From: a virus
Taxonomy: Duplodnaviria > Caudoviricetes
Length of the DNA stretch: 60,247 nucleotides
IMG/VR virus record: IMGVR_UViG_3300023118_000002
Coordinates: 1 to 60,247 of that record
Direction: 5' to 3' (one strand)
The notes under the pieces were generated by a model, which made no database searches, was not told the DNA's origin, and saw only the letters and a program-made list of their open reading frames with translations. A program made the position numbers and the translations under genes. Shown here one piece after another: positions 2,781-60,247 of the stretch. The first letter of the stretch is position 1. The number at the start of each line of letters is the position of its first letter.

Positions 2781-2876
2781 AATCCGGTTCCTTCACATTC
2801 CGGACAGTGGCAGACTTCGAATTCCATGTAGCCGCACGCTTCGCATTTACACGGTCCCCGATCGTCTGGTACCAGA

Positions 2877-3874: not shown

Positions 3875-3886
3875 CTCCTTTCAAGA
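3875..3886 (-). promoter_or_regulatory. extended RBS TCTTGAAAGGA(G); representative of ~12 copies
   Basis: Other copies at ~4134, 4930, 5667, 5992 (variant), 6343, 6780, 42404, 44025, 46376, 57932, 58544, each just upstream of a start codon. Confidence 0.85.
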
Positions 3887-3890
3887 AAGA

Positions 3891-3923
3891 AAGCCATACC
3901 ACAGGATTAGTGTGATATGGCTT
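3891..3923 (-). terminator. hairpin plus T-rich tail
   Basis: AAGCCATATCACA-CTAATCC-TGTGGTATGGCTT then TCTTTC. Confidence 0.6.
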
Positions 3924-3947
3924 ATTGCAGTTTTGCAGTTGGCGAGA

Positions 3948-4127
3948 TTACTCGGCCGACTCTTCTTCGGGCAGGACCGCGTTGAGGATTGCTCCAGAGA
4001 TCAGCGTGACCGCGACCGCTGTTGCAACACCGAGAACGATGTTCACGGCAAGCTTGGTGGCGAGGGCTTTGCTGACCTTCTTGAGCTCATCCTTGTTGAG
4101 GTCTTTGATGACGGTAGAGGTGGGCAT
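3948..4127 (-). CDS. small single-TM protein
   Basis: Promoter motif and extended RBS upstream; hydrophobic segment. Confidence 0.75.
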   Translation of the reverse strand: MPTSTVIKDLNKDELKKVSKALATKLAVNIVLGVATAVAVTLISGAILNAVLPEEESAE

Positions 4128-4155
4128 TGTAGTTCCTTTCAAGAGGTATTACTGG

Positions 4156-4182
4156 TCATTATATGCCCTGTTTTTTGCGCGA
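4156..4182 (-). promoter_or_regulatory. phage promoter motif copy 1
   Basis: TCGC GCAAAAA ACA GGGCA TATAATGA. Confidence 0.8.
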
Positions 4183-4183
4183 G

Positions 4184-4540
4184 TTATCCGGGGTAACGGA
4201 GCTCGATATACTCTTCCGAGAAATCAGCCGAGTCAGTCACGAAGAGCTTTACACCTACGAGCGTGTCATCAACTAAATTGTTATTCCCTCGAGGCATGAG
4301 GAACGAGGGGAACGTGTTTACGAACAGGTTAAGGTCAACCATCGGAGTAACCGTGCGATACACAACGTGCAAAGCTGGCTCCCCCTCAGATGCAAACCAA
4401 GTATCACCCTGAATATCCAGAGCAGGCTCGATGTAGGGAGTGTCCGGATTGGCCTGAGGAGGCAGTAGTCGATACATCTGCGCTTCCAGTACACCGATCT
4501 CTTCGGGCATGATACCCATGTGAATTGCAAGACTCATCAA
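4184..4540 (-). CDS. hypothetical protein
   Basis: 118 aa ORF, AAGGAG RBS, overlaps upstream stop. Confidence 0.7.
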   Translation of the reverse strand: MMSLAIHMGIMPEEIGVLEAQMYRLLPPQANPDTPYIEPALDIQGDTWFASEGEPALHVVYRTVTPMVDLNLFVNTFPSFLMPRGNNNLVDDTLVGVKLFVTDSADFSEEYIELRYPG

Positions 4541-4710
4541 TCTTCTCCTTCTAGGTGGTCTACGATCTTCGCAAACTCGAGGTTGTCATTAAGTGTCCGA
4601 AGCATCTCGAAAGCTTCGTTTAGTGCTTTGATTTCATCTTCTTTGCGGATCAGGGCAAATATACTTACACCCAGGGCTGCACTTGCGATGACGATAGCGA
4701 TTTTATTCAT
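4537..4710 (-). CDS. small protein with N-terminal TM helix
   Basis: MNKIAIVIASAALGVSIFAL; fills the gap. Confidence 0.65.
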   Translation of the reverse strand: MNKIAIVIASAALGVSIFALIRKEDEIKALNEAFEMLRTLNDNLEFAKIVDHLEGED

Positions 4711-4770
4711 ACGCGACCTTTGCAAAGTAAAACCCTAGGCCGTGAGGCTTTCGGGTATTGGATCTTTTAG

Positions 4771-4923
4771 TTAAACGAGTTTGGATGCTCGGTAGGCGTA
4801 TGCGGAGGATTCCACAGTCTTAGCGACGGCCTTCAGGAGTCCGGTTGCTACTACAGCAGCGGACAAGAGAATGGTCGCGGCGAAGATGGGGTCTTCTTCG
4901 AAACGGGCTTTGAGTTTCTTCAT
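4771..4923 (-). CDS. small single-TM protein
   Basis: Promoter and extended RBS upstream; hairpin 4729-4759 downstream. Confidence 0.75.
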   Translation of the reverse strand: MKKLKARFEEDPIFAATILLSAAVVATGLLKAVAKTVESSAYAYRASKLV

Positions 4924-4945
4924 TGGTTTTCCTTTCAAGAGGGTT

Positions 4946-4972
4946 TCATTATAGGGGTTGTTTTTAATGCGA
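4946..4972 (-). promoter_or_regulatory. phage promoter motif copy 2
   Basis: TCGC ATTAAAA ACA ACCCC TATAATGA. Confidence 0.8.
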
Positions 4973-5085
4973 GGCTTTATGGCATTTGCAATCACAGTCT
5001 ACGTGTGCGCCTTTATACCCCCGAATATCGTTCTTGCATTCTTCGTGGTTGCCCATAAAGCATTCGTTGGTAAGTGCTTCTCCAC

Positions 5086-5316
5086 TCACGTAGTCACCTC
5101 CTCATCCACCTTGAGAGTTGTCAGCTCGAGGTTCGGATAATGGCGCGCGAAGACGGATTCCGGCATGATCAGAAAGCGCGGACGCTCGCTCCAATCCTCG
5201 ACCAGAATCCAGCCAATGTTCGTGGTGTAAGCCCGCTCATCGACACCTGAAATATGATGCAGGAGATTGGTGTTTTTCTCGGTTACTTTCCAGGCTTTTG
5301 TTTCTTGATTAGCCAT
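5086..5316 (-). CDS. hypothetical protein
   Basis: 76 aa ORF coupled to upstream stop (TAATG). Confidence 0.65.
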   Translation of the reverse strand: MANQETKAWKVTEKNTNLLHHISGVDERAYTTNIGWILVEDWSERPRFLIMPESVFARHYPNLELTTLKVDEEVTT

Positions 5317-5456
5317 TACTTTGCTTCCTCTTCCGCGCGAGCGATCTTGAGTTGTTCTTCCCAGTGCTCAACTTCGTCCCAGAAGCCGAGGCCTGTAGCC
5401 AGCTTACAAAGCTTCTCGAGCGATTCAATCGAATATCCGGTACTGTTGGTCATCAT
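5316..5456 (-). CDS. 46 aa hypothetical protein (MMTNSTGYSIESLEKLCK...)
   Basis: Hand translation; AAGGAGTAAATGATG start context. Confidence 0.6.
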   Translation of the reverse strand: MMTNSTGYSIESLEKLCKLATGLGFWDEVEHWEEQLKIARAEEEAK

Positions 5457-5463
5457 TTACTCC

Positions 5464-5661
5464 TTAAGACAAACGGTTTATCAGGATCTTGCTGAGTGTG
5501 TTGAGTCCGATTATGATGGCGATTCCAACGATGAGCTTCTCTGCTGCGTGGTCAATTACATACGTGACCTGGGCAGGAATCGGAATATCGTTTGTAGCAG
5601 GTTCAGGTGCTGCTTTGGGTTGCTCTTTTACGATGCGAACCTCGAGTTTACGACCAAGCAT
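5464..5661 (-). CDS. small protein with C-terminal TM helix
   Basis: Extended RBS before ATG 5661; the longer ORF-track start runs through a promoter and an ncRNA. Confidence 0.7.
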   Translation of the reverse strand: MLGRKLEVRIVKEQPKAAPEPATNDIPIPAQVTYVIDHAAEKLIVGIAIIIGLNTLSKILINRLS

Positions 5662-5706
5662 AGGGTCTCCTTTCAAGAGAAAAATTATAACCTGTGTTAG
5701 GTTACT

Positions 5707-5763
5707 GAAAAATATCTTACGGATTCGAACCGTGACGCCCCACAATGTGCGAGAGTATCTTTC
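5707..5763 (-). ncRNA. putative ~57 nt tRNA-like small RNA with T-loop
   Basis: Closing stem GAAAGATA/TATTTTTC, hairpin CTCGCA/TGTGGG, T-arm ACGG-TTCGAAT-CCGT; lies between promoter copy 3 and hairpin TAACCT/AGGTTA plus T-run. Confidence 0.5.
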
Positions 5764-5788
5764 ACTATAGGGCTTGTAATTCATGCGA
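5762..5788 (-). promoter_or_regulatory. phage promoter motif copy 3
   Basis: TCGC ATGAATT ACA AGCCC TATAGTGA. Confidence 0.8.
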
Positions 5789-5822
5789 AAAACTATAGGC
5801 CTTGTTAGGGCCCAATAGCTTT
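5788..5822 (-). terminator. hairpin whose T-run abuts the next promoter
   Basis: GCTATTGGGCC-CTAACAA-GGCCTATAGT-TTTT-CGC. Confidence 0.65.
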
Positions 5823-5985
5823 ATTGGATGTTGAACGGGTGATCTTCGGTGACAATTCCGTGAAATGCTTTTTTATTCAAGTTTTGGAGCTTTCGGAGTG
5901 AGAGACCAACTACGATCGCGGTTGCGAGGCAGACAGTCCCAAACAGGATAGCTACTTGCGTTGAGGTAAGTTGCGATTCATTCAT
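5821..5985 (-). CDS. 54 aa single-TM protein (MNESQLTSTQVAILFGTVCLATAIVVGLSL...)
   Basis: Hand translation; promoter copy 4 and GAAAGGA RBS upstream. Confidence 0.7.
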   Translation of the reverse strand: MNESQLTSTQVAILFGTVCLATAIVVGLSLRKLQNLNKKAFHGIVTEDHPFNIQ

Positions 5986-6006
5986 TGGTTTTCCTTTCAG
6001 AGGGGT

Positions 6007-6033
6007 TCATTATAGGCTATGTTTTCCTTGCGA
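6007..6033 (-). promoter_or_regulatory. phage promoter motif copy 4
   Basis: TCGC AAGGAAA ACA TAGCC TATAATGA. Confidence 0.8.
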
Positions 6034-6073
6034 AAAACTATAACCTTTGTGGAATTACCGTGAGGTTATAGTT
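6033..6073 (-). terminator. hairpin whose T-run abuts the next promoter
   Basis: AACTATAACCT...AGGTTATAGTT followed by TTT-CGC. Confidence 0.65.
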
Positions 6074-6078
6074 GGATG

Positions 6079-6336
6079 TTAGTTTGCGGGTATAAACCAC
6101 ATGGGGGTGTTTGGTGCAACGACTGTTTCAATGATTTCGGTAACGCCGTACTTGCGTACATCATCGAGGTACGGGTTGGACAACATTTCTTCGTACACCT
6201 TTTTAAGTTCGAGATCAGGGGCATGTTTGAGCGACACTGCTGCGTAGGCAATGACCGCTCCTCCAATTGCTGCTCCGGCGTAAAGGGCGTAAAAAGTCAG
6301 TTCGTCTTTATGGTTTTTGATGAATGTCTTAAGCAT
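6079..6336 (-). CDS. small single-TM protein
   Basis: Promoter copy 5 and extended RBS. Confidence 0.75.
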   Translation of the reverse strand: MLKTFIKNHKDELTFYALYAGAAIGGAVIAYAAVSLKHAPDLELKKVYEEMLSNPYLDDVRKYGVTEIIETVVAPNTPMWFIPAN

Positions 6337-6365
6337 GGGGTTCTCCTTTCAAGAGAAATTAGGGT

Positions 6366-6392
6366 TCATTATAGGCCGTGTTTTCCTTGCGA
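6366..6392 (-). promoter_or_regulatory. phage promoter motif copy 5
   Basis: TCGC AAGGAAA ACA CGGCC TATAATGA. Confidence 0.8.
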
Positions 6393-6409
6393 AAAAATAT
6401 AACGTATGT

Positions 6410-6456
6410 AAAAAGGGAGGACTAGTCGGCTATTAAGCGTTCTAGTCCTCCCTTTT
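6410..6456 (-). terminator. strong intrinsic terminator
   Basis: AAAAGGGAGGACTAG...CTAGTCCTCCCTTTT perfect 15 bp inverted repeat. Confidence 0.8.
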
Positions 6457-6485
6457 GGGAGTGCTATTGATTGGGTTAGCGGGTA

Positions 6486-6773
6486 TCAGATTTTCTTGAT
6501 CATACTGTAGCTTTTCGAGGTGACAGCACCGATCGATTCTTTCGAGATCACGAGGAGGATTCCGAGGATGTTCACTCCAGCACTGACCCAAACGTCTTTG
6601 CTTACGGCGGTCTTCTTTGGCTTGTTGCCATTGAGGACGTCGTTGAGTTTGACAATTTGGTCTGTGATGCGAGCGTACTCCGCGGAATCGGGATCGTGGG
6701 TTTCGAGATCGGCGATTGCGATGTTGATCATCTTTTCAAGGTGAGGGTATTGTTCAGGTGTTTTCTTCAACAC
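6486..6773 (-). CDS. small membrane protein
   Basis: Promoter copy 6 and extended RBS before GTG; C-terminal hydrophobic helix. Confidence 0.75.
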   Translation of the reverse strand: MLKKTPEQYPHLEKMINIAIADLETHDPDSAEYARITDQIVKLNDVLNGNKPKKTAVSKDVWVSAGVNILGILLVISKESIGAVTSKSYSMIKKI

Positions 6774-6796
6774 GAGGGTCTCCTTTCAAGAGGGGT

Positions 6797-30588: not shown

Positions 30589-31005
30589 CTACCACAGGCT
30601 TGTGTCGCCCGGGCGTCTTTCTACCATAGGTTGAGGAAGCATTGATGCGTCACCATAGTGAATAGCATTGTGGGTATTATGAGTTACGGTGATAAGATAC
30701 TCGGGGTCCAAAATATCCGGATCACCATCATCGAGATCTTCTAGTCGCATAGGGTTCATGTGATGAATGATAACCTTATCAAATATCTGATAACCGTCTA
30801 TACCTAGATCACAACCATCATCACGCACGATCACAATATCACGAACGCGCTTCCACTCGACCGAACGGTAGAACTGTTGATTGATCCATCTGTCAAAACC
30901 GAAAGTGGACTCACCAACGGTAGCTCGAAGTTGTAAGTAATCGTATCGTTCTTCAAAAGTCTGAAACTGTGACATTTCAGAATATGATCTGACCCGGTTA
31001 CTCAA
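30589..31005 (-). CDS. HNH endonuclease, packaging-associated
   Basis: FYRSVEWKRVR..RDDGC..IHHMNP..HNTHNAIH. Confidence 0.85.
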   Translation of the reverse strand: MSNRVRSYSEMSQFQTFEERYDYLQLRATVGESTFGFDRWINQQFYRSVEWKRVRDIVIVRDDGCDLGIDGYQIFDKVIIHHMNPMRLEDLDDGDPDILDPEYLITVTHNTHNAIHYGDASMLPQPMVERRPGDTSLW

Positions 31006-31330
31006 TGGTATTATCCGAAGAAGGCTGGTAACCCTTGAAGGCGTTCATAGCCTCCTCGAACAATTCTTCGACCCTACCTGCTGAAGCCAAACTTTCAACT
31101 CGTGCCTGGGCTAGAAGAGTTTCTTGCTCGAGCTTTAGTCGCTCAAGTCTCTCTTTCTCAGTAGCAAGCTTTAGGAAGTGAACCGTCTCTTGCGATGACG
31201 CTGTTCCCGAAAGAAGCTTTCTTTCAACTACGTCCATTGCCAAAGCAATCAATTGATTCTCTCGGCCTTGCGGGGTAGTTGCCGGCGGTCTTTTGCTCGC
31301 CGGGTTGTCGTCTTTTCGAGACGTCACCAT
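30998..31330 (-). CDS. putative terminase small subunit
   Basis: 110 aa helical protein upstream of HNH near the genome end; assignment mainly by synteny. Confidence 0.5.
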   Translation of the reverse strand: MVTSRKDDNPASKRPPATTPQGRENQLIALAMDVVERKLLSGTASSQETVHFLKLATEKERLERLKLEQETLLAQARVESLASAGRVEELFEEAMNAFKGYQPSSDNTIE

Positions 31331-31367: not shown

Positions 31368-31838
31368 TCAAACAGAAGTGTTCTTTGGAATTGGTTTAGT
31401 TCTGAGACGTCGAATTTCTGTAACTGGTTTAGTAGAATCGAACTCGGCTTGTTCTTCAGGTGTCAGCGTAATGTTACTGCGATTGACTACCTGTCGGAAA
31501 AGATTACGGAGAGTAGTGATCTGCCAAATCTGATCGTTCTTAGTGTTCTCGAGATCGGTAACTCTAGTCCCCAGCTCAGTGTTCAACGATTCAGCTTTCT
31601 CTACCGCGGCATTAGCCCGGTCAAGGAGATCCTGATACGTTTTAATCTGACTATCCGTTCCTGAGAGCATTACAGTTGTCTCATCGAGATTAAGCTTTTT
31701 GTTGGCGTTGTTCTTATTAAGTAGAAACCCAAGAGTTACAGGTACTGCTGCGGCAATGAGTGCTAGTGTAACCGCGACACCTACCGTGCTCCAGTTTACG
31801 CTAACATCCGGAATTGCTGCTTCAAATGGTAATATCAT
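31368..31838 (-). CDS. membrane-anchored coiled-coil protein (lysis cassette)
   Basis: N-terminal TM helix then coiled coil. Confidence 0.6.
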   Translation of the reverse strand: MILPFEAAIPDVSVNWSTVGVAVTLALIAAAVPVTLGFLLNKNNANKKLNLDETTVMLSGTDSQIKTYQDLLDRANAAVEKAESLNTELGTRVTDLENTKNDQIWQITTLRNLFRQVVNRSNITLTPEEQAEFDSTKPVTEIRRLRTKPIPKNTSV

Positions 31839-32296
31839 TTGCTAACTTCTCCTGCCTGCTTTATAAGCGTCAGGTAGATGAAGATAACACGTGAAATTGG
31901 TATTACCAAGAATGATGAATTGAGAACGAAAGAAACGCCTCGAGCAACATCACCTTGGAAAAAAGCAAGCGCAATAAAAACTTCATAGACCAGAACTAGT
32001 GTTACTAAAGAAGCAGCACTATACATCTCAAGTCTAGCAAACTTCGGAAAGAACGTGGCTCCGAGTAAAGCGCAAAAAGCAGTTGGTAAAACTAAAGTCG
32101 AAAATGCAATTTGGAAAAAATCGCCCTGCGCCTCAACCAAGGTGGGGATAGATCCAAAAATTGAAGCAATGCCCCAAAGAAAATAGATCAGGTAAAGTGT
32201 GGCGGCTGATCTATGGTAAAGTACAGCGAGAACTTTGTCAGGTCCCCAATCATCACCGATGCGATGAAACACAGTTCGGTCTATAAATTTGCGCAT
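31835..32296 (-). CDS. four-TM membrane protein, holin candidate
   Basis: Four hydrophobic segments; downstream of endolysin. Confidence 0.6.
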   Translation of the reverse strand: MRKFIDRTVFHRIGDDWGPDKVLAVLYHRSAATLYLIYFLWGIASIFGSIPTLVEAQGDFFQIAFSTLVLPTAFCALLGATFFPKFARLEMYSAASLVTLVLVYEVFIALAFFQGDVARGVSFVLNSSFLVIPISRVIFIYLTLIKQAGEVSK

Positions 32297-32349
32297 GGAA
32301 ACCCCCTAAGCTTTACGCATGGCTTTTGAAAGAATGTAGTTAGTTTTAA

Positions 32350-32532
32350 CAGGCTTTGAAGGGAACACCAAGACTTTCACACAGTTTTTTCGGACCCGAC
32401 CGATACACCATGCGCTTGAAAGGAGGGGGTCGGAGAAGGCTGATGAAGGCCTAAGTAACCCACTTTGTGTCTTGATGTTCCCGTCAAAGCCTGCAGTGGG
32501 ATCGCTATCCATTTTGAGTAGCGATCCCACTG
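32350..32532 (-). ncRNA. putative structured RNA displaying CCUCCUUUCAAG
   Basis: 14 bp hairpin 32494-32532; long stem 32469-32493 with 32350-32374; inner stem 32428-32433 with 32396-32401 enclosing the motif at 32415-32426. Confidence 0.6.
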
Positions 32533-32539
32533 AGCTTAC

Positions 32540-33346
32540 TTACTTTAGAACTCGGTTGTTCTCGGCGTTAGCACGTTCTGCTGCGGCCTTCATGTTTGGA
32601 CCCCAAAGATCATCGCGGTCTTTGTAGCCCCACTTGGAACGAAGCCAGTTCGCAACCGAACCACGGTAGTTGACGTTAAGGAAAGTCTGCAGACCCTTAC
32701 GAGTCTTAGGGCCAGGCTTGTTGTCAACTGCAGTAGCACCACCATTGCGACGAGCAATTTTCTGGAAGCCCTCAATGTTAGAGAGCGACATCAGATCTTC
32801 TACGGTTGCTGTGTGGTAGCTCGGCGCAGGAGCGGAAGGCGCAGTTGGCGCACTTGGCGTTGCCGGCGGTGCATCCACAAGCGAACCTCGATTGGTCTTG
32901 TGCCAGGGCTCTCCGAAGTTGTAGCCTTCGTTTTCGAAGTTGAACTGTCCGGCATGATCGCGCATCCAGTTGTCTCGAGCGGTTCCACGGGTCATCACTC
33001 CCTTGTCAGCTCCGGTGTCCCGGATGTCGATTGAACGCGGACCGTTAGGACCATCGTCTTCGTGGTTGGAAGTACCAGGTGCGGCGACCGTACCAGCTGC
33101 AGAGATACGATACCAAAGCTGACCGTTCCAGCTTCGTGTGTCGTAGACCTTGCGTCCCTTGATACCACCAGAAGTTACGTAGCGCTGACGGAAAATGCTT
33201 TCCTGCTCAGCACGAGTACGAGTACCACTTGAGATGATCAAGCTCTGACCGGTGGCTGCATGGAATGCTTCGTTCATACGATCGAAGTCGGCAGCAACAT
33301 GTATCTCTACACGCTGGCCGTTACGGGTGGTGTACGAATATGTCAT
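32540..33346 (-). CDS. endolysin, M15-family Zn peptidase plus C-terminal cell-wall-binding region
   Basis: SGTRTRAEQ, PGTSNH, SIDI, EPWH motifs; Pro/Ala linker. Confidence 0.85.
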   Translation of the reverse strand: MTYSYTTRNGQRVEIHVAADFDRMNEAFHAATGQSLIISSGTRTRAEQESIFRQRYVTSGGIKGRKVYDTRSWNGQLWYRISAAGTVAAPGTSNHEDDGPNGPRSIDIRDTGADKGVMTRGTARDNWMRDHAGQFNFENEGYNFGEPWHKTNRGSLVDAPPATPSAPTAPSAPAPSYHTATVEDLMSLSNIEGFQKIARRNGGATAVDNKPGPKTRKGLQTFLNVNYRGSVANWLRSKWGYKDRDDLWGPNMKAAAERANAENNRVLK

Positions 33347-33594
33347 TCGGTTGCCTCTGCTCCCTTGTCGTCGTCAGGTGCGTTTGCAACTGAAACGGTG
33401 TCGGCGTGTTCTACTCCGGGGACAAGAATAAGTTCACCCTTGTCATCGAGACCGAAGGCGTCGGTAATACCATCACCGTTCAGATCCTGATCGAGTGGGA
33501 GGAGAGGATTCTCGTTCCCGTCTTTCTTCCACTGAAGAAGTGCGGCCTTGATAGCTGCTTTGTCTTCGTCAGGCAGTGCTGAAATGTCGGACAT
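33343..33594 (-). CDS. small acidic protein, first gene after the predicted cos
   Basis: AAGGAGAAAACTGATG start; DLNGDG Ca-binding-like loop. Confidence 0.65.
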   Translation of the reverse strand: MSDISALPDEDKAAIKAALLQWKKDGNENPLLPLDQDLNGDGITDAFGLDDKGELILVPGVEHADTVSVANAPDDDKGAEATE

Positions 33595-33679
33595 CAGTTT
33601 TCTCCTTACTTTGCGTGGTATAGACCCCTGGAGTTTCCAAAGACATACCACAGAATTTCCCCCCGGGGATTTTTTGAGG

Positions 33680-33688
33680 ACAGCGGCG
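33680..33688 (-). other. predicted cos site, 9 nt 3' overhang CGCCGCTGT
   Basis: Non-coding gap between polymerase and lysis/packaging modules; resembles CGCCGxxxT overhangs I recall for related phages. Confidence 0.6.
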
Positions 33689-33745
33689 ATGCAGAGAGGG
33701 GGCCCGAAATTTTAGACCCCCCCTCCCCTACACCTTATAAACTCC

Positions 33746-34006
33746 CTAGTAGTCTGAAGGCGTAACTTTTTTGTAAATCCCGAAAGGATTTTCTTTTATA
33801 AGTTCGTTAATACCTTCTAGAATTGCTGATTCCTGATCAGCATCAGAGAGATCATTACTTGTGATCACATACCTAGCCAGTAGGCCCGTCGAGTAGTAGC
33901 CCAGGTATTCATCATGGGCCAGCCATTCACTGTACTGCGTGAAAGGGTTCCATGGGTTGTCGGTTGTCGTGATCATCACTGCATGATTGTCAGTTACATT
34001 AGTCAT
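33746..34006 (-). CDS. conserved hypothetical protein
   Basis: MITTTDNPWNPFTQY..W block; AAGGA RBS. Confidence 0.7.
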   Translation of the reverse strand: MTNVTDNHAVMITTTDNPWNPFTQYSEWLAHDEYLGYYSTGLLARYVITSNDLSDADQESAILEGINELIKENPFGIYKKVTPSDY

Positions 34007-42396: not shown

Positions 42397-42596
42397 AACT
42401 ATTCTCCTTTCAAGAAAATATAGGTTGGTGGAAGGGCGGTTAGAAGAGTGTAAGACCTCAACTAACCGCCCCCTGACCCATTAATACCCGGGGAAGCAAC
42501 TCCCAGACATTTGGCGGTCACATAGCCCTTTATGGACACTGTAAATATGGCAGGGGCTTTCTACCTGGACGACTTCTCCAGTGCATACCTTTTACT

Positions 42597-42716
42597 TGTC
42601 ATGGTGGGCACGATGTAGTTGCTAGCTACGCTGTTGTTTGAGATATGCGCCGGATTCGGTGCGCCATCCCCACCCGCTCTGAGCTTAAGACACTATTTAA
42701 AGACGCTCAGACGTCT
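42597..42716 (-). ncRNA. pistol self-cleaving ribozyme
   Basis: P1 AGACG/CGUCU with loop UCUGAG pairing to CUCAGA; UUAAAUAG; P2 UGUC/GACA; UUAAG; GCG; P3 GGUGGG/CCCACC; scissile A-U at 42602/42601. Confidence 0.9.
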
Positions 42717-43062
42717 ACTGGTTCATTGTGATTGCGATTTCAGAAAGCTGCATATACTCCTGAGCCAAGACTTCCTTTGACAAGACTCGAACTCTAACAA
42801 ACGTCCCGTCCCGATCAGGCAAGACCACAACAATCTGCCCAGGTTTGAGCCACACAATACCAAAAGGACTTTTACTTCGCCACCAGAGAACTGCACCATC
42901 GGTCTTTTCATAGTCAAGATCACTGGTTCGAAACGCCGGAATCCCACCGAGGGAAAGCCAATTTTGAATATCACCAACATTTTCTTCGGTGCATTCAACC
43001 GCAAACTCAGCTTCAGTGATAGGAATAACTCTTTCAACCTTAAGCATCGGGCGCCTTCCCAT
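42715..43062 (-). CDS. hypothetical protein, possibly related to 46448..46741
   Basis: EAV...EN...I..W and KPGQIVV pattern. Confidence 0.6.
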   Translation of the reverse strand: MGRRPMLKVERVIPITEAEFAVECTEENVGDIQNWLSLGGIPAFRTSDLDYEKTDGAVLWWRSKSPFGIVWLKPGQIVVVLPDRDGTFVRVRVLSKEVLAQEYMQLSEIAITMNQ

Positions 43063-43270
43063 CCGGTGTCTGGCTCATGAAAGACTCCACCCGAGCAAGT
43101 TCCTCGAGCTCCTCACGTGCCTTCTGATTGAGCGCCTTAACAATCAGCCCCGCCATGACAGGAGTACCTGCGTCAGGCACAACCTCGTTCCACGACGATC
43201 GACCAGCCGGCTTTTTGATGACACTGACGATACCGTTAGCTTTGAAATATGTTGCGAATTCGTCCATCAT
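43040..43270 (-). CDS. hypothetical protein
   Basis: GGAGTAAATGATG start context. Confidence 0.6.
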   Translation of the reverse strand: MMDEFATYFKANGIVSVIKKPAGRSSWNEVVPDAGTPVMAGLIVKALNQKAREELEELARVESFMSQTPDGKAPDA

Positions 43271-43692
43271 TTACTCCCTTCAAAGTGCATGTTTTTCTTG
43301 CCCCACCGAATGGTGATGTTGCGAGTAAGCGGAGACCGGTCAATCTCCATAACCACGCCGAGATCTGCAGCTCTATCTGTGTAGATACGTTTGAGCTGGG
43401 TGTTGCTTATAGATGGCAATGAAAGCATGAGCTGCTCAGTCAAGATGATCTCGCCCTCTTTACCAACCGGCAACGGCCAGCCTTCATAATCGGTGCGCTG
43501 AAGTCGCAACTGCTTAGCTTTTTTGTTACGCTTTTTGGCATAACGGTCATAGCTATAGGCGCGCAGCTTAGACAGACCACCGAGAATGATAACAGGCAGA
43601 ACACCCATCAAGACAATGATGATGAAATATCCAGCAGCAATGCCACCTGCAATTACGAAAAGCCACATCCACCATGTCATTTCAGGCATCAC
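43267..43692 (-). CDS. membrane protein
   Basis: N-terminal hydrophobic segment; GGAGG RBS. Confidence 0.65.
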   Translation of the reverse strand: MMPEMTWWMWLFVIAGGIAAGYFIIIVLMGVLPVIILGGLSKLRAYSYDRYAKKRNKKAKQLRLQRTDYEGWPLPVGKEGEIILTEQLMLSLPSISNTQLKRIYTDRAADLGVVMEIDRSPLTRNITIRWGKKNMHFEGSK

Positions 43693-43784
43693 GTACCTCC
43701 AGTTGTAAGGCCCGCAATGACCAGCATAACGAACAGCGCAAACATCACAATTACGACCAGGACAATACCACCGCAGCCCCTCAT

Positions 43785-44018
43785 CTAAAACTCCCCGTTC
43801 AGAATATCGATCATCACCAGAGTTGTCGGCTTGCCGGCCTTGAGGTACTCCACCATCTTGTCGAAATGTTCACGACAGAGAGACATACCGCCAAGGATCG
43901 CAACCGCTTGGCGGGAATACTGCTCGCCCTCTTTGAGCTCATGAGCGATACAAAGCCGAAGCACATGCCCCGATGCGTCGATCTTTTCCTCGGTTTCAAA
44001 CTGAATTGCCTTTTCCAT
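43785..44018 (-). CDS. hypothetical protein, paralog-like to 46039..46227
   Basis: Extended RBS; C..AVAILGGMSLCREH. Confidence 0.65.
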   Translation of the reverse strand: MEKAIQFETEEKIDASGHVLRLCIAHELKEGEQYSRQAVAILGGMSLCREHFDKMVEYLKAGKPTTLVMIDILNGEF

Positions 44019-44220
44019 GTTGTTCTCCTTTCAAGAGAAATATATCTTTTATAGCTTCGTTAGTCCGCTCAAGTCTTTCAACTTCTTGGGTAATGACTAC
44101 TGTTCCGTTTTCTAATCCCTCAAGCAATCGCTTAGCCGTTGGATCGGTATCTTGAGTCTGGATTGCCCGGTCTACAAGCGCTTGGGGGACATATGAAACA
44201 AAGGGCTCGCTTCTATCCAT
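43996..44220 (-). CDS. hypothetical protein
   Basis: 74 aa ORF coupled to upstream stop. Confidence 0.5.
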   Translation of the reverse strand: MDRSEPFVSYVPQALVDRAIQTQDTDPTAKRLLEGLENGTVVITQEVERLERTNEAIKDIFLLKGEQHGKGNSV

Positions 44221-44876
44221 TAGAGCTCTGGATCTTGCCGTTCGGAACGAATTCTTCCGATTTCATCCTGGATATACCAGATGGCTTTTTCCAAGTCGTT
44301 GATCTGCTTTTCGACCGTGTCACCACTGCCGGCTTTCAGACCATTACGCCAAAGGTACTTAAAAGCACTACCAATGTTAAAATTCCTGTGCCGAACCACC
44401 TCAATACACTCAATCCCACTTGGATCGATATTGTAGTGCTTAGGGTGGTTCACACCAGCTTGATCGATATCATTACCGGTGGTGCTCTTTTCTTCTTGAT
44501 TACTGTTCACGTGAGCATCTCTCCAATCAGGTTTAGCGATAGCAATCCCCAAGCATTTCTTACACATTGGACGAGTAGCGGTGTCATGGCTAATGTCATA
44601 CTCGAGGTTTGCGTAACTTAGTGCATTGTTAAGTCGAGGAACACCACACAATGTTTGCTCACTATCCAAAAGCGGTCTGTGAACCAAGGGAATTATCGCC
44701 TGAGGCTCATTGGCTTCTGAATTCCCCGCGGGACCTTCCGGACCTACCTGAGGTAGTTTTGGCTCCACGTATTCGTTACACTCGCACCTACTTCGTGCAC
44801 AAGGATGGCGATCTCCAGGATGCACCATCGGGTGACTACTCCACGAATGACCACAGTATTCACATAGCGGTTCCAT
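44220..44876 (-). CDS. DUF3310-domain protein with Cys-rich N-terminus
   Basis: VNHPKHY..GIECIEV..FNIGSAFKYLWR..DLEKAIWYI. Confidence 0.8.
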   Translation of the reverse strand: MEPLCEYCGHSWSSHPMVHPGDRHPCARSRCECNEYVEPKLPQVGPEGPAGNSEANEPQAIIPLVHRPLLDSEQTLCGVPRLNNALSYANLEYDISHDTATRPMCKKCLGIAIAKPDWRDAHVNSNQEEKSTTGNDIDQAGVNHPKHYNIDPSGIECIEVVRHRNFNIGSAFKYLWRNGLKAGSGDTVEKQINDLEKAIWYIQDEIGRIRSERQDPEL

Positions 44877-45601
44877 TATGGTGCCACCCTTCCATTCCTG
44901 ACAAATGCGTCGTAAGTAGCCGGCATTGCTTTTGCAAAATGCGCTGCAACCTTCATAGCACCCATCTGGATCTCCCACTGAGGGTAGGAGCGCACCAGAC
45001 TGTCCTCCGACTCAATCCTCAGTGAGAGGAAGTTCATCAGGGAACGAGCATTGACCGTCCAGTACATCTGAGTGTAGATGTTAACCGGAAGGACCATGCG
45101 AGCAACCTCGTTAGCAATACCGGCCTTGAGCATCCACTGGTAATGCTCCCAAGCGTCTACGGCACTGTGATTGAGAATACCCTGGATGTCCATAGTAGCC
45201 TCGAGATTGGGCTCGAAAACGGGACGCATTTTTGTACCCACGTTGATCACCTTGCGACCGTGGTCTGGGGTATAGAACTTCGGGGGCAGCTCAGTGTAGC
45301 GACCGCTCATCTCATTGAAACTCGACATGCGATGACGCTGCCACTCACGAACGACAAACAGTGGTGCCTCCACAAAGAAGGTAAACATATTGTGCTCGAA
45401 CGGACTACCATGACGACCGGCCATAAGTGCCTCTATAAGGCGCTGTGGGACCGTCTCAGGCTTGTTCTCGCCCTTACTGGATACCTGTGCGGCCTGGACA
45501 ACCATGTCGTCAGAAGCCATTGCACGGACCAGATTGACAGTGATTTCACTGCTAAATTCGATTGGGGGTCTTTCGTCTACTTTACTCATCATTTTCTCCA
45601 T
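44876..45601 (-). CDS. thyX: flavin-dependent thymidylate synthase
   Basis: HGSPFEH; RHRMSSFNEMSGRY (RHRx7SxR); EVARMVLP; NARSLMNFLSLR. Confidence 0.95.
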   Translation of the reverse strand: MEKMMSKVDERPPIEFSSEITVNLVRAMASDDMVVQAAQVSSKGENKPETVPQRLIEALMAGRHGSPFEHNMFTFFVEAPLFVVREWQRHRMSSFNEMSGRYTELPPKFYTPDHGRKVINVGTKMRPVFEPNLEATMDIQGILNHSAVDAWEHYQWMLKAGIANEVARMVLPVNIYTQMYWTVNARSLMNFLSLRIESEDSLVRSYPQWEIQMGAMKVAAHFAKAMPATYDAFVRNGRVAP

Positions 45602-45788
45602 AATATACAGATGTAATTCGTTGATTAATCAGGTTGAGTTCGTCCACTTGATGCATGTAAACGTCGCCAGAATACATAAAAGAAGACATCATGCTTCTGA
45701 TTTTGCGGACGTACTCTCGCTTAAGAATACGAACCAGTTTTCTGCGGGCGCGGCGTTCAGGCTGTGTGAGATACTTTTTAGTTTTCAT
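45582..45788 (-). CDS. small basic protein
   Basis: 68 aa ORF, ATGA overlap. Confidence 0.55.
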   Translation of the reverse strand: MKTKKYLTQPERRARRKLVRILKREYVRKIRSMMSSFMYSGDVYMHQVDELNLINQRITSVYYGENDE

Positions 45789-46042
45789 CGGTCAGTAAAC
45801 CTTTGGACTTCTTGCTGCAAAGCCATTTCAAGAAGTCCACGACGCTCAATAAAGCGCATATCCTCCTTGAAATATGATGCCAGCTGCGCCGTTCTGCGTT
45901 GCTCGAGCTCAACTGAAGTCTGCTCAGTAATCAGAATCCAAGTACGAACATAGGGCTGATCTTCGTCGTTAACCGTATCAACAAACTCAGATATAGCGGC
46001 ATTGAGCTTATCTCGAGCCGCCTCTTTCTCTTCGTCCATCAC
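45785..46042 (-). CDS. hypothetical protein
   Basis: 85 aa, GAGGA RBS. Confidence 0.6.
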   Translation of the reverse strand: MMDEEKEAARDKLNAAISEFVDTVNDEDQPYVRTWILITEQTSVELEQRRTAQLASYFKEDMRFIERRGLLEMALQQEVQRFTDR

Positions 46043-46227
46043 TCGAAGTCCTCATCCCGCTGATAGGTAATTCGACCTTCCCAAACAGGCAACGTTTCAA
46101 ACACTCGAGAAACATTCTTGTCCGAGACATTTGAAATATGGTGCTCACAGACGGCAGTACCACTTCGAATTGTGATCGCGTCGAAAGCTTCGCCTTCTTT
46201 TACCATCAAGCACACTGCACACTTCAT
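46039..46227 (-). CDS. small zinc-binding protein
   Basis: CAVC...AITIRSGTAVCEHH. Confidence 0.6.
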   Translation of the reverse strand: MKCAVCLMVKEGEAFDAITIRSGTAVCEHHISNVSDKNVSRVFETLPVWEGRITYQRDEDFE

Positions 46228-46447
46228 TAGTCAGTCACCAACTCAGGATGCTTGTTTACGAAATCTTCGGCCGCGGCACGGTAAATAGACATGCCAAGAG
46301 GAGCGTTATCGTCAGTCCATTCACTAAAATGATTGGCTAAAAGTTCTATAAGTTCTTGTCTGTTCATTTAGTTTCTCCTTTCAAGAGAACGGTGGGGTCA
46401 TCGACTTTTCGCCAAATGACCCCACCGGGAATTTTTCGTAAAACTGC

Positions 46448-57925: not shown

Positions 57926-57972
57926 GTTGTTCTCCTTTCAAGAGACAAATATAAAGCACCGGTTAGGGTCCT

Positions 57973-57999
57973 TCGTTATAGTGCATGTTATTTGTGCGA
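57973..57999 (-). promoter_or_regulatory. phage promoter motif copy 8
   Basis: TCGC ACAAATA ACA TGCAC TATAACGA. Confidence 0.75.
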
Positions 58000-58003
58000 A
58001 TGT

Positions 58004-58534
58004 TTACTTACTCGTGAAGATGGCGTTCTTGTACTCGAAGCTGGGGGAGTAGGCGATCGTGATATCTGCGGCGTCAGCAACGCTGAAAGCCTCGTTCCAC
58101 TTCATCGTCTGTCCAGCAAGAAGCGGGCCAGCGGGGGTGTCGCCGATGTTCTGACCGAAGTCCGAGATCGCTGCAGCCTGCTGTCCACCGGAGGTAGCTG
58201 TGGGCCACCCAGCCTGGTCGAGAGTCTTGTCCGAGTTGTTGGTAACTACGAGAGTGACCTGAATATAAGTCATTCCAGCAGTCGCTCCAGCCGCCTCAGG
58301 AGAAGGCGTGTATGGCGCTGCAGGGCTCACCGAGACGCTGACACCGTCCTTGTAGGTCACTACCTCGCCGAACTTCTTGACCAAAGGATCGGTCACAGGA
58401 GCAGGTGCCGGCTTCTCAACGGTTGCCGAGGAGGCCTTGGGATCTGCGTGGGTGGAACCCTGAACGGCGCATCCTGACATCAGGAGAACGACGGGGAGGG
58501 CGATTGCGATGCTGATTTTCTGGATGGTGTTCAT
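58004..58534 (-). CDS. lipoprotein with Ig-like (DUF4352-like) domain
   Basis: Signal peptide with lipobox-like MSGC; VTLVVTNNSD and LLAGQT motifs. Confidence 0.8.
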   Translation of the reverse strand: MNTIQKISIAIALPVVLLMSGCAVQGSTHADPKASSATVEKPAPAPVTDPLVKKFGEVVTYKDGVSVSVSPAAPYTPSPEAAGATAGMTYIQVTLVVTNNSDKTLDQAGWPTATSGGQQAAAISDFGQNIGDTPAGPLLAGQTMKWNEAFSVADAADITIAYSPSFEYKNAIFTSK

Positions 58535-58576
58535 TTTAGGTTTCTCCTTTCAAGAGAATTTATTTGTTGGTAAAAG

Positions 58577-58762: not shown

Positions 58763-58802
58763 TCTCATCGCCTATCTTGAAAGGAGGTTTGTGGCGATGA
58801 GA
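58763..58802 (-). ncRNA. hairpin displaying CCUCCUUUCAAGA in a 20 nt loop
   Basis: Perfect 10 bp stem TCTCATCGCC/GGCGATGAGA; motif at 58775-58787. Confidence 0.6.
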
Positions 58803-59989: not shown

Positions 59990-60165
59990 CTTGGGTCCCT
60001 TTCTTCATCTGCTGGTTGTGCTTTGACGATCTCTCGGTAAGTGTCAGTCCACTGGCGGCCTGTCCAAAAGCGATCGTGAGTCACACTCCAGATCTTGTAC
60101 CCGATGGAAGTGTCGTCTGGAGGGTTTTGCTCACTTTCCGGTAGCGCGTTAGTTACTTCATCCAT
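59980..60165 (-). CDS. hypothetical protein
   Basis: 61 aa; start coupled to the stop of the 45..251 gene copy. Confidence 0.6.
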   Translation of the reverse strand: MDEVTNALPESEQNPPDDTSIGYKIWSVTHDRFWTGRQWTDTYREIVKAQPADEERDPRWL

Positions 60166-60247
60166 TAGATAGTGGCTCTAGGAAACGCGTAGATAAAGAG
60201 CACAATACCCAGTACAAGGTTGAATGCTCCGATGAGAGACAGCCCGG
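60121..60247. repeat. 127 bp end overlap, copy of 1..127
   Basis: Exact identity. Confidence 0.95.

What the first reader, a model, noticed from the sequence alone, without database searches (positions are those of the whole stretch)
32350..32532. Structured RNA in the lysis cassette displays the complement of the extended RBS
Seen: the gap between endolysin and holin candidate folds into a 14 bp hairpin and a long stem whose inner loop has CCUCCUUUCAAG (32415-32426). This is complementary to CUUGAAAGGA(G), found at about 12 small-gene starts. A second display occurs at 58775-58787; these are the only opposite-orientation copies I noticed. The adjacent GCGCAUGG is also complementary to the holin start CCAUGCGC (32291-32298). 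Known: CCUCCUUUC matches the actinobacterial 16S 3' end, while the AAG extension does not. Inference: a trans-acting anti-SD sRNA that silences a gene class or host translation, and may time holin expression. Caveat: several late genes have GAAAGGAGG and would also pair.
Basis: partly seen in the sequence, partly recalled or inferred. Interest (0 to 1): 0.85.

Follow-up and report, generated by a model that had tools for sequence, protein, structure and literature searches.

The report
Phage RNA displaying an anti-ribosome-binding-site sequence
The gap between the endolysin and holin-like genes holds a member of a widespread, apparently undescribed family of folded phage RNAs whose exposed strand is the exact complement of the ribosome-binding leader carried by a whole class of the phage's own early genes, so it may be an RNA switch for that gene class.

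Summary
Window 32349-32494 (minus strand) is a real, conserved, structured RNA.

**Structure.** A closing stem of about 25-35 bp encloses a three-way junction. Its single-stranded joint reads (U)CUCCUUUCAAG(AG). In 27 relatives the stem is 94% paired, all 29 pairs covary, and G-U outnumbers A-C 56 to 10. This points to RNA on the gene strand.

**Distribution.** I found about 50 distinct members in IMG/VR phage contigs. Four cultured actinophages also have it: Microbacterium phage Count and Arthrobacter phages Qui, Argan and Sporto. Rfam 15 has no match.

**Position.** The element usually lies just inside the left cohesive end, upstream of a conserved 110-aa gene plus an HNH gene. It is not specific to the lysis cassette, so the proposed link to holin timing is not supported.

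**Complementary leaders.** Genomes with the element also carry 1-12 copies of the leader CUCUUGAAAGGAGA(A). These lie at starts of right-arm, non-structural genes, and match the joint over 13-16 contiguous bases in five relatives.

**Independent parallel.** In Cluster K mycobacteriophages, the single reverse copy of their different "start-associated sequence" also sits in a hairpin loop.

**Limits.** No RNA data exist, so trans-silencing is an inference (about 0.4). In this window the joint pairs at least as well with late-gene ribosome-binding sites.

The parts
32349..32494 (-). The structured RNA element: closing stem P1, inner helices P2a/P2 and P4, and single-stranded joint J2.
   Evidence: MFE fold. 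Covariance model R1 hit at 32349-32495(-), 69.4 bits, E 1.9e-15, the only strong hit in the window.
32469..32494 (-). P1, 5' strand (11 bp, a C/U mismatch, then 14 bp).
   Evidence: In the 27-sequence alignment 29 of 29 pairs covary and 94.4% of cells are paired.
32349..32374 (-). P1, 3' strand.
32437..32452 (-). P2 hairpin AGGC-CUUCAUCA-GCCU. Its loop carries UCAUCAG, the complement of CUGAUGA (spacer end, AUG, A). It is enclosed by an extra helix P2a (32457-32464 with 32424-32431).
   Evidence: The UCAUCAG loop is shared by the subgroup found. That scan required the motif, so its invariance there is by construction.
32415..32426 (-). J2 joint CCUCCUUUCAAG, the displayed anti-leader / anti-Shine-Dalgarno sequence.
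   Evidence: unpaired probability 0.75. The core CUCCUUUC is present in 18 of 20 distinct relatives found through protein homology plus the model.
32378..32414 (-). P4 hairpin, variable in relatives. Its 5' strand holds GCGCAUGG, which is complementary to the holin-like start.
32494..32532 (-). Perfect 14-bp hairpin with an 11-nt loop, 7 nt after the endolysin stop. No U-run follows it.
   Evidence: The terminator scan did not call it.
58765..58800 (-). Second display: an 11-12 bp hairpin with a 20-nt loop ACAAACCUCCUUUCAAGAUA, directly after the stop at 58809.
   Evidence: Relative G002 has the same loop core on a stem of different sequence.
3876..6790 (-). Six sense copies of the leader (C)UCUUGAAAGGA at gene starts: 3876-3885, 4134-4143, 4930-4939, 5668-5677, 6344-6353, 6781-6790.
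   Evidence: Each lies 5-9 nt before ATG or GTG, and most lie behind TATAAT-like boxes.
42405..46385 (-). Three sense leader copies: 42405-42414, 44026-44035, 46376-46385.
57933..58554 (-). Two sense leader copies: 57933-57942 and 58545-58554.
33655..33690 (-). Predicted cohesive-end site. CGCCGCUGU is followed by the left-end sequence CCUCAAAAAAUCCCCGGGGGG, so the physical left end is near 33679.
   Evidence: The same sequence starts at least 12 relatives' contigs and the GenBank records of Sporto, Argan, ClubPenguin and Count. The 9-base 3' overhang of cluster AU phages is given in PMC5679793 (whole text read).
32540..33346 (-). Endolysin (VanY-type peptidase domain), the upstream neighbour.
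31835..32296 (-). 153-aa membrane protein (holin-like, no family match), the downstream neighbour.
   Evidence: Weak similarity to the G001 counterpart.
30589..31330 (-). The 110-aa phrog_4259 gene (30998-31330) and the HNH endonuclease gene (30589-31005). In most relatives this pair follows the element directly.

Best explanation
Window 32349-32494 (minus strand) encodes a member of a conserved family of structured phage RNAs of about 110-165 nt.

**Architecture.** A long closing stem (median 31 bp) carries a three-way junction. The junction holds a pyrimidine-rich strand, (U)UCUCCUUUCAAGAG, single-stranded between two hairpins. In one subgroup the neighbouring hairpin loop reads UCAUCAG. Together these two pieces are the reverse complement of an ideal translation start region: Shine-Dalgarno, an 8-nt spacer, then AUG.

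**Proposed mechanism.** The RNA is made as part of the left-arm (lysis, packaging, structural) transcript. It may be released by cleavage in the long stem. Its exposed strand then base-pairs with the short 5' leaders CUCUUGAAAGGAGA(A) of the right-arm, non-structural gene class. This covers their ribosome-binding sites and switches that class off, or marks it for a double-strand RNase.

**Shown.**
- The structure, its conservation, and its strand.
- Exposure of the motif.
- Co-occurrence of the element with long complementary leaders.

**Inferred.**
- Transcription timing and processing.
- Pairing in vivo.
- The direction of the effect.
For: 1. **Structure.** z = -6.8. For P1 across 27 relatives, 94.4% of cells are paired against 63.6% in shuffles. 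All 29 pairs have double changes, and 0 of 500 shuffles reach any of the five measures. Slid controls give 37-50% paired.
2. **Strand.** G-U 56 against A-C 10 in P1. The sense fold is more stable than the antisense fold in 25 of 30 rows. R1 always scores the sense strand far higher, for example 123.5 against 50.1 bits.
3. **Not coding.** Stop-free frames fall in all three phases relative to the core (15, 12, 12).
4. **Family size and reach.**
   - 27 distinct members came from motif scans.
   - 23 of 79 loci fetched only by homology to the neighbouring protein have a sense hit.
   - Four cultured phages have hits of 60-98 bits.
5. **Exposure.** The mean unpaired probability of the 8-nt core is at least 0.6 in 47 of 49 members that have a core. 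Whole-element means are 0.21-0.39. Four members carry two tandem copies (L200, L174, L189, L213).
6. **Complementary leader class.**
   - TTGAAAGGAG or CTTGAAAGGA counts, gene strand / opposite strand: window 11/2, G002 11/2, G005 6/1, G006 3/1, G004 2/1, G003 1/1, Count 10/1, Argan 2/1, Sporto 3/1, Qui 12/2. Reversed-pattern controls give 0-1.
   - Match lengths to J2 are bimodal: most sites match 6-9 nt, while a separate class matches 13-16 nt (G002 10 sites, G005 5, G004 2, G006 2, G003 1).
   - Those leaders top the duplex ranking in G002 and G005, at -23 to -29 kcal/mol against medians of -13.4 and -14.5.
   - All of them lie in the non-structural arm.
7. **Relatives without an element.** In four relatives with no element found near the conserved gene, no reverse copy occurs anywhere in the record, and sense copies number 1, 0, 2 and 0.
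8. **Second leader class.** GGAGAAAACUGAUG occurs in all 8 genomes whose P2 loop is UCAUCAG. It occurs in none of the 5 genomes whose loop differs.
9. **Second scaffold.** The same loop sits on different stems in the window and in G002.
10. **Independent analogue.** In 4 of 4 Cluster K1 mycobacteriophages checked, the one reverse copy of their different start-associated sequence forms the 10-nt loop of a long hairpin in a non-coding gap.
Against: - **No expression data.** No RNA run holds this phage.
- **The window's own J2 is a variant.** It matches the class-1 leaders over only 11 nt (about -20 kcal/mol). It pairs better with GAAAGGAGG sites of large late genes, at -24 to -26.5 kcal/mol. Class specificity is therefore weakest in the very genome under study.
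- **G001 and G007 do not fit.** They have the element but no long-matching leader class, and G007 shows no compensatory change.
- **Low-GC relatives are uninformative.** In G012-G016 the complement is just a generic strong ribosome-binding site.
- **Covariation cannot separate RNA from DNA.** Covariation between J2 and the leaders would equally arise if both were copies of one double-stranded DNA site.
- **Co-occurrence is confounded** by shared ancestry and by G+C content.
- **Ascertainment bias.** The motif scans required the conserved blocks, and R1 was built from those sequences, so conservation of the core is partly by construction.
- **Some pairing of the motif.** In the window's MFE fold the first bases (CCCCCU) pair with an upstream strand.
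Confidence: 0.42

Rival explanations
1. Cis-acting element of the left-arm transcript. The long stem would be a processing or stabilising site, for example for RNase III as at the phage T7 intergenic sites. The anti-Shine-Dalgarno strand would fold back onto the ribosome-binding site of the next gene, setting translation of the holin-like gene here and of the 110-aa gene elsewhere.
For: - The element always lies on the gene strand, 25-120 nt before the next start.
- The stem of about 30 bp has a mismatch at a fixed distance of about 15 bp from the junction.
- Some downstream sites match J2 beyond the core: L223 and L139 match over 11 nt.
- In the window, ACCCCCU and GCGCAUGG are complementary to AGGGGGU and CCAUGCGC of the holin-like start.
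Against: - Complementarity to the next gene is only the generic 6-9 nt in most members, for example L087, L133, L210 and L190.
- The two complementary blocks in the window are in the wrong order for one helix, and one of them lies inside P4.
- The downstream gene differs between members while the motif stays the same.
- This reading does not explain the 13-16 nt matches to many distant leaders, nor the second scaffold.
Confidence: 0.22
2. Protein decoy. The exposed strand copies the 3' tail of 16S rRNA and binds a protein that normally recognises that tail. Candidates are a ribosomal protein such as bS21, a maturation factor, or a host endoribonuclease toxin that cuts the tail.
For:
- Tandem copies occur in four members.
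- OLE RNA carries an anti-SD mimic that is bound by bS21 (PMC12054373, passages read).
Against: - The flanks conserved in the family (UUCU before the core and AAGAG after it) differ from the rRNA tail. They match the phage leaders instead.
- No candidate protein partner is linked to the element in gene order, apart from the 110-aa gene of unknown function.
Confidence: 0.12
3. DNA-level element. The 13-nt motif would be a binding site for a DNA-binding regulator that works in either orientation, or the inverted repeat would act as single-stranded or cruciform DNA near the cohesive end (packaging, replication, or a hairpin promoter for the phage polymerase).
For: - The element usually lies 27-80 nt inside the physical left end.
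- Sense copies of the motif follow -10-like boxes.
- The phage encodes a polymerase-like protein of family phrog_4291.
- Identity of the motif in both orientations is what a DNA site predicts.
Against: - In Count the element is 2.5 kb from the end, and in the window 1.2 kb.
- G-U 56 against A-C 10 favours one strand, and that strand is the non-template strand.
- The inner helices and junction are RNA-like.
- Both reverse copies sit in loops of conserved hairpins, which a double-stranded site does not need.
Confidence: 0.1
4. An unannotated small protein gene (the 74-aa ORF 32306-32530 on the minus strand), or a chance fold.
For: - A stop-free sense frame crosses the element in 33 of 51 members.
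- GenBank annotates the Count element as the 5' part of gene 7.
Against: - Antisense frames are open nearly as often (26 of 51).
- The open frames fall in all three phases relative to the conserved core (15, 12, 12).
- Element length varies from 108 to 165 nt, with compensatory stem changes.
- Chance is excluded.
Confidence: 0.02

Closest known systems
Start-associated sequences (SAS) of Cluster K mycobacteriophages (Pope et al. 2011, PMC3203893; passages read)
   Same: - A 13-nt asymmetric repeat contains the Shine-Dalgarno core and lies a few bases before start codons.
- There are 11-19 copies, restricted to the non-structural right half of the genome.
- The repeat is conserved beyond what 16S pairing explains.
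[quoted passage not shown]
- The authors left open whether an RNA or a protein binds the repeat.

The window's CUCUUGAAAGGAG leaders behave the same way (11 sense copies, 2 reverse).
   Different: - The sequence differs (GGGATAGGAGCCC), as do the phage lineage and the host.
- The paper did not report that the reverse copy lies in a structured RNA loop. I saw that here for Anaya, Adephagia, CrimD and Angelica.
- Those four phages are close relatives, so they count as one observation.
c4 antisense RNA of phages P1/P7 (recalled, not read here)
   Same: It is a small phage RNA processed from a longer transcript. Its exposed loops pair with a ribosome-binding region to shut down translation of a target.
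   Different: - c4 targets one operon on the same transcript.
- It is released by RNase P.
- Its fold is unrelated.
- No match to any Rfam family was found here.
Anti-SD mimic in OLE RNA bound by bS21 (PMC12054373; passages read)
   Same: A structured non-coding RNA carries a copy of the 16S anti-Shine-Dalgarno sequence that matters for function.
   Different: - In OLE the mimic is paired within a helix and binds a protein.
- Here the motif is single-stranded, is extended towards the phage leaders, and lies in a phage.
RNase III processing hairpins between phage T7 genes (recalled)
   Same: A long, irregular, intercistronic stem lies on the gene strand of a polycistronic phage transcript.
   Different: - T7 sites have no conserved exposed primary sequence and no three-way junction.
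- Cleavage was not tested here.
Abundant stable non-coding RNAs at the genome ends of Cluster A mycobacteriophages L5, D29 and StarStuff (PMC5712189; passages read)
   Same: An actinophage non-coding RNA lies next to a cohesive end. Its function is unknown.
   Different: - Those RNAs lie at the right end and come from the early promoter.
- They span about 500 nt.
- No sequence or fold relation was tested.

Membership tests
Any Rfam 15 family | Covariance-model score at or above the family's gathering score. | tested here: not met
   The whole window at gathering thresholds returns only Pistol at 42665-42716. At E up to 10, 32250-32600 returns only symR (22.9 bits against 61 needed, on the 14-bp hairpin) and a snoRNA fragment.
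New family defined here (model R1) | Closing stem of at least 20 bp with compensatory changes. | tested here: met
   The window scores 69.4 bits, E 1.9e-15. At least 20 enclosing pairs occur in 49 of 49 members. All 29 pairs covary.
New family defined here (model R1) | Single-stranded CUCCUUUC core between two inner hairpins. | tested here: met
   The window core is at 32418-32425 with unpaired probability 0.75, flanked by P2 and P4.
Base-pairing (antisense) regulatory RNA | Accessible seed with extended complementarity to its targets. | tested here: met
   The window shows 11-nt matches to 10 leaders. Relatives show 13-16 nt matches.
Base-pairing (antisense) regulatory RNA | The RNA accumulates and alters target expression. 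| not testable with these tools
   No listed sequencing run is on record as RNA.
Start-associated-sequence system (Cluster K type) | An asymmetric repeat containing the SD core, 3-7 nt before start codons, confined to the non-structural arm. | tested here: met
   All 11 sense copies map to the right arm once the cos site is placed at about 33679.
Start-associated-sequence system (Cluster K type) | The sequence GGGATAGGAGCCC. | tested here: not met
   The window's repeat is CUCUUGAAAGGAG. The resemblance is functional, not homology.
Intrinsic terminator | G+C-rich hairpin followed by a U-run. | tested here: not met
   The scan of 31800-33800 does not call the 14-bp hairpin or P1.
tRNA / tmRNA-like | ARAGORN detection. 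| tested here: not met
   No genes were found in the window.
RNase III substrate | Cleavage of the long stem. | not testable with these tools
   Only the geometry is seen: about 30 bp with an internal mismatch.

The most novel reading that the evidence does not exclude
Phages of at least two unrelated actinophage lineages may encode a 'private anti-Shine-Dalgarno' RNA. The lineages are the cluster AU-like Arthrobacter/Microbacterium phages with their metagenomic relatives, and the Cluster K mycobacteriophages.

The RNA would be a structured scaffold that displays the complement of the phage's own start-associated leader. Through it the phage would switch translation of its whole non-structural gene class at once. 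This would answer what start-associated sequences are for, a question left open in 2011. It would also define a new layer of temporal control in phage development.
Probability: 0.3. Interest if true: 0.85.

Novelty: new variant of a known kind. Interest (0 to 1): 0.72.

Why it matters
**A new, testable RNA family.**
- Its closing stem covaries strongly (29 of 29 pairs).
- I found about 50 distinct members. More than 571 IMG/VR stretches encode the protein that usually neighbours it.
- It occurs in cultured, non-pathogenic laboratory systems: Microbacterium foliorum phage Count, and Arthrobacter globiformis phages Qui, Argan and Sporto. It can therefore be tested directly.

**A candidate partner for an old puzzle.**
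- Conserved leaders or start-associated sequences in front of many non-structural actinophage genes have had no known partner.
- This RNA offers a concrete candidate.
- The same arrangement turned up in Cluster K mycobacteriophages with a different sequence.

**What follows if pairing is real.**
- It would be a class-wide translational switch encoded by a single RNA.
- Functionally it would parallel phage T4's RegB nuclease, which inactivates early ribosome-binding sites (recalled).

**What follows if pairing is not real.**
- The family still marks the left-arm leader of a large phage group.
- It also corrects annotations, for example the extended start of Count gene 7.

Tried and rejected
- **Megablast** of 31800-33400 against GenBank phages: no match.
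- **Holin-like protein** as a probe in IMG/VR: no relatives.
- **Exact 19-nt core** in IMG/VR: none.
- **Genome contigs pattern scan**: 21 hits in unrelated phyla, none in Actinobacteria. I did not inspect these 21 loci individually; most non-member hits of the looser viral scan were reverse complements of ordinary gene starts (ribosome-binding site plus ATGGCTGATGA).
- **Sequencing runs**: no RNA holder listed. Two DNA holders were found, one of which may be the source sample.
- **Hammerhead reading of the plus strand** (GAAA … CUGAUGA): rejected. Only 18 nt separate the two blocks, and Rfam gives no hit.
- **Mini-ORF on the plus strand** behind the ribosome-binding-site-like sequence: 3 codons in the window, with variable length and no conservation elsewhere (by inspection).
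- **Anticodon-loop mimic** (CUC-CUUUCAA-GAG): the 3-bp stem is absent in the window and in several unbiased members.
- **phi29-type packaging RNA**: the loops are not mutually complementary (by inspection).
- **Cohesive-end (cosB) role**: weakened by Count (2.5 kb from the end) and the window (1.2 kb).
- **Column-wise covariation for P2 and P4**: not obtained, because their registers and lengths differ between members. I report only that 34 of 49 MFE folds show a hairpin on both sides of the core. That count is depressed by the 3-bp mini-helix.
- **Second reverse copy in Qui** (1008-1017): lies in a coding region, lacks CUCC and is not displayed.
- **Literature**: searches found no description of this RNA or of an anti-SAS RNA.
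Full report
**What is there**

Near the finding all genes lie on the minus strand. The endolysin is at 32540-33346. A 243-nt gap follows, and then a 153-aa membrane protein at 31835-32296.

- Seven bases after the endolysin stop lies a perfect 14-bp hairpin.
- Directly behind it, 32349-32494 folds into a long stem around a multiloop.
- The gap has dG -98.4 kcal/mol, z = -6.8, with 0 of 200 shuffles as stable.
- The opposite strand folds equally well in this one sequence.
- On the minus strand the multiloop reads …GGCC-UUCAUCA-GCC UUCUCCGACCCCCUCCUUUCAAG CGCAUGG….

CTTGAAAGGA occurs 13 times in the window, against 0.24 expected.

- Eleven copies are on the gene strand, each a few bases before a start codon and mostly behind TATAAT-like boxes.
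- Two copies are on the other strand: at 32415 (this element) and at 58776, in the 20-nt loop of a hairpin after the stop at 58809.

**What the phage is**

The window is a complete, circularly assembled IMG/VR record. Its 'terminal repeat' is a 126-base assembly overlap inside coding sequence.

- *Endolysin.* It resembles Microbacterium phage endolysins.
- *924-aa gene (34031-36805).* It matches phrog_4291, labelled 'RNA-dependent RNA polymerase', with E = 0. GenBank relatives annotate it as a helix-turn-helix protein, and it is the last large gene at their right end.
- *110-aa gene (30998-31330).* It belongs to phrog_4259, of unknown function, and is followed by an HNH endonuclease gene.
- *Where this gene pair occurs.* It is found in 227 GenBank phages of Arthrobacter, Gordonia, Streptomyces, Microbacterium and other hosts, mostly at the extreme left end.
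That description also gives 9-base 3' cohesive ends (PMC5679793, whole text).
- *Left end.* The left-end sequence of cultured relatives is CCyyAAAAA…CCCCGG(G/C)GG…. It also starts at least 12 metagenomic contigs. In the window it occurs once, at 33655-33690 on the minus strand.

The real gene order from the left end is therefore: cos, a 102-aa gene, endolysin, the element, the holin-like gene, a 156-aa gene, phrog_4259, HNH, and then the structural genes. The eleven leader-bearing genes all lie in the right, non-structural arm.

**A conserved RNA family**

- *First relative.* A relative with 44% endolysin identity (G001) has the same layout between endolysin and a holin-like gene: a hairpin, then a long stem around UCAUCAGCC…CUCCUUUC. 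Its stem sequences are different.
- *Motif scans.* Two motif scans of IMG/VR gave 27 distinct members.
- *Closing stem P1.* It is 94.4% paired, against 63.6% in shuffles and 37-50% when the partner column is slid. All 29 pairs show double changes.
- *Strand.* G-U pairs number 56 and A-C 'pairs' 10. The sense fold is the more stable in 25 of 30 rows. The covariance model R1 always scores the gene strand far higher. The functional strand is therefore the gene strand, and RNA is the natural reading.
- *Not coding.* Open frames cross the element often, but in all three phases relative to the core (15, 12, 12).

*Reducing ascertainment bias.*

- The scans required the two conserved blocks, so I fetched 79 further loci purely by homology to phrog_4259.
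- R1 found a sense hit in 23 of them.
- Among the 20 distinct sequences in this set, 18 keep CUCCUUUC exactly. Of the other two, one (L151) has GUCCUUUC and one (L161) has no core.
- Four sequences carry two tandem copies.
- The UCAUCAG loop proved specific to a subgroup.
- R1 was built from sequences with an invariant core, so some bias remains.

*Cultured phages.* R1 also hits:

| Phage | Position | Score (bits) |
|---|---|---|
| Microbacterium phage Count | 2502-2647 | 84 |
| Arthrobacter phage Qui | 293-413 | 98 |
| Arthrobacter phage Argan | 180-317 | 70 |
| Arthrobacter phage Sporto | 377-493 | 60 |

It finds nothing near phrog_4259 in a Gordonia, a Rhodococcus, a Bifidobacterium or a Streptomyces phage, nor in a fecal scaffold. 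Only the fetched stretch around the gene was searched in each: 1.2 kb upstream where the record allowed, and about 100-160 nt in the Streptomyces phage and the fecal scaffold, where the gene lies at the record start.

*Summary numbers.*

- Across 49 members with a core, P1 has at least 20 pairs in all 49 (median 31).
- The core's mean unpaired probability is at least 0.6 in 47 of them. Whole-element means are 0.21-0.39.
- Rfam 15 has no matching family.

**Position**

The element is not a lysis-cassette feature.

- In most members it lies 25-120 nt before phrog_4259 and only 27-80 nt inside the physical left end.
- In Count it follows the lysis genes, 2.5 kb from the end.
- In Qui five small genes separate it from phrog_4259.
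- In the window and in G001, L014 and L049 it lies between endolysin and the holin-like gene.
- One contig (L140) has two copies.

This variable placement argues against a role tied to holin. Together with the strand bias, it also argues against a cohesive-end DNA function.

**The complementary leaders**

- *Counts.* TTGAAAGGAG or CTTGAAAGGA is strongly over-represented on the gene strand of genomes that carry the element. Exactly one or two reverse copies occur in each. Gene strand / opposite strand counts are: window 11/2, G002 11/2, G005 6/1, G006 3/1, G004 2/1, G003 1/1, Count 10/1, Argan 2/1, Sporto 3/1, Qui 12/2. Reversed-pattern controls give 0-1.
- *Match lengths.* I measured how far each AAGGAG site matches the complement of that genome's J2. 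The distribution is bimodal. Ordinary sites match 6-9 nt. A separate class, yCUCUUGAAAGGAGA(A), matches 13-16 nt in G002 (10 sites), G005 (5), G004 (2), G006 (2) and G003 (1).
- *Duplex energies.* That class heads the predicted duplex ranking in G002 and G005.
- *Second leader class.* GGAGAAAACUGAUG is complementary to the P2 loop plus the 5' part of J2. It occurs in all 8 genomes with a UCAUCAG loop and in none of 5 without it.
- *Relatives without an element.* Four relatives without a detected element have no reverse copy, and 0-2 sense copies.
- *Second display.* The hairpin of the window recurs in G002 with a different stem and the same loop, ACCUCCUUUCAAGAUA.

**Results against the trans-silencing reading**

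- The window's own J2 has an insertion (…UUCUCC GACCCC CUCCUUUCAAG CG). It matches the class-1 leaders over only 11 nt.
- Its best predicted partners are GAAAGGAGG sites of large late genes.
- G001 and G007 have the element without a long-matching leader class. In G007 the changed J2 is not compensated.
- In low-G+C relatives the complement is simply a generic strong ribosome-binding site.
- Covariation between J2 and the leaders cannot separate RNA pairing from one DNA site read in two orientations.
- Co-occurrence is confounded by ancestry and base composition.
- No RNA data exist.

**Independent parallel**

Pope et al. (2011) described 13-nt start-associated sequences in Cluster K mycobacteriophages.

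- The sequences are confined to the non-structural arm.
- Four phages each have one opposite-orientation copy.
- The authors left open whether an RNA or a protein binds them (passages).

I located the reverse copy in Anaya. The record has 16 forward copies and 1 reverse.

- The reverse copy lies in a 385-nt non-coding gap near the right end. The gap folds with z = -6.0.
- It forms the 10-nt loop CCUCCUAUCC of a long hairpin.
- Adephagia, CrimD and Angelica have the same hairpin.
- These four phages are close relatives, so this is one further case, not four. It is nevertheless a different sequence in a different lineage.

**Verdict**

*Solid findings:*
- The element is a member of a new, widespread structured-RNA family.
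- Its defining feature is an exposed anti-ribosome-binding-site strand.

*Best-supported mechanism:*
- The strand pairs with the phage's own start-associated leaders to control that gene class (about 0.4).

*Rivals:*
- A cis-acting processing and translation element (about 0.2).
- A 16S-tail protein decoy (about 0.1).
- A DNA-level site (about 0.1).

*Not supported:*
- The holin-timing idea.

Cultured hosts make the decisive experiments straightforward.

Noticed in passing
window 42665-42716 (-): Pistol self-cleaving ribozyme, Rfam RF02679, 38.4 bits against a gathering score of 34.5. It was the only Rfam hit in the window.
   Followed up: no
window 33655-33690 (-); window 1-126 = 60122-60247: The predicted cohesive-end site is CGCCGCUGU followed by CCUCAAAAAAUCCCCGGGGGG. 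The record is circularly permuted, and its 'terminal repeat' is an assembly overlap inside coding sequence.
   Followed up: partly
window 11707, 26642, 57629 (positions on the reverse-complemented window): A second conserved start motif, GGAGAAAACTGATG, has 3 copies here, 9-12 in G001, and copies in all 8 genomes with the UCAUCAG loop. It is complementary to the P2 loop plus the 5' part of J2.
   Followed up: partly
L258 (Microbacterium phage Count, MH153801) 2502-2647: The annotated gene 7 (2502-3044) starts inside the RNA element, whereas the homology to phrog_4259 begins at 2685. The annotated start is probably too far upstream.
   Followed up: partly
L265 (Anaya) 571-583; also L266, L267, L268: The single opposite-orientation start-associated sequence of four Cluster K1 mycobacteriophages forms the 10-nt loop of a long hairpin in a structured non-coding gap near the right end. 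In Angelica the site falls inside annotated gp92.
   Followed up: partly
L256 (Argan) 42-169; L255 (Sporto) 43-155: A second long-stem structure lies between the left end and the element in both phages. R1 scores it weakly (34 and 23 bits), and its inner region holds no CUCCUUUC core, although Argan's reads CUACUCCUUCC.
   Followed up: no
L140 3948-4062 and 5279-5387 (-): One 5.5-kb contig carries two copies of the element about 1.2 kb apart (68 and 79 bits).
   Followed up: no
window 34031-36805 (-): The 924-aa protein matches phrog_4291, labelled 'RNA-dependent RNA polymerase' (E = 0), and has helix-turn-helix and sigma-region-4-like segments. GenBank relatives annotate it only as a DNA-binding protein, and it is the last large gene before the right end.
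   Followed up: partly
L258 (Count) 105-183: Count has a tRNA-Tyr gene directly inside its left end, in the place where many relatives have the RNA element.
   Followed up: no
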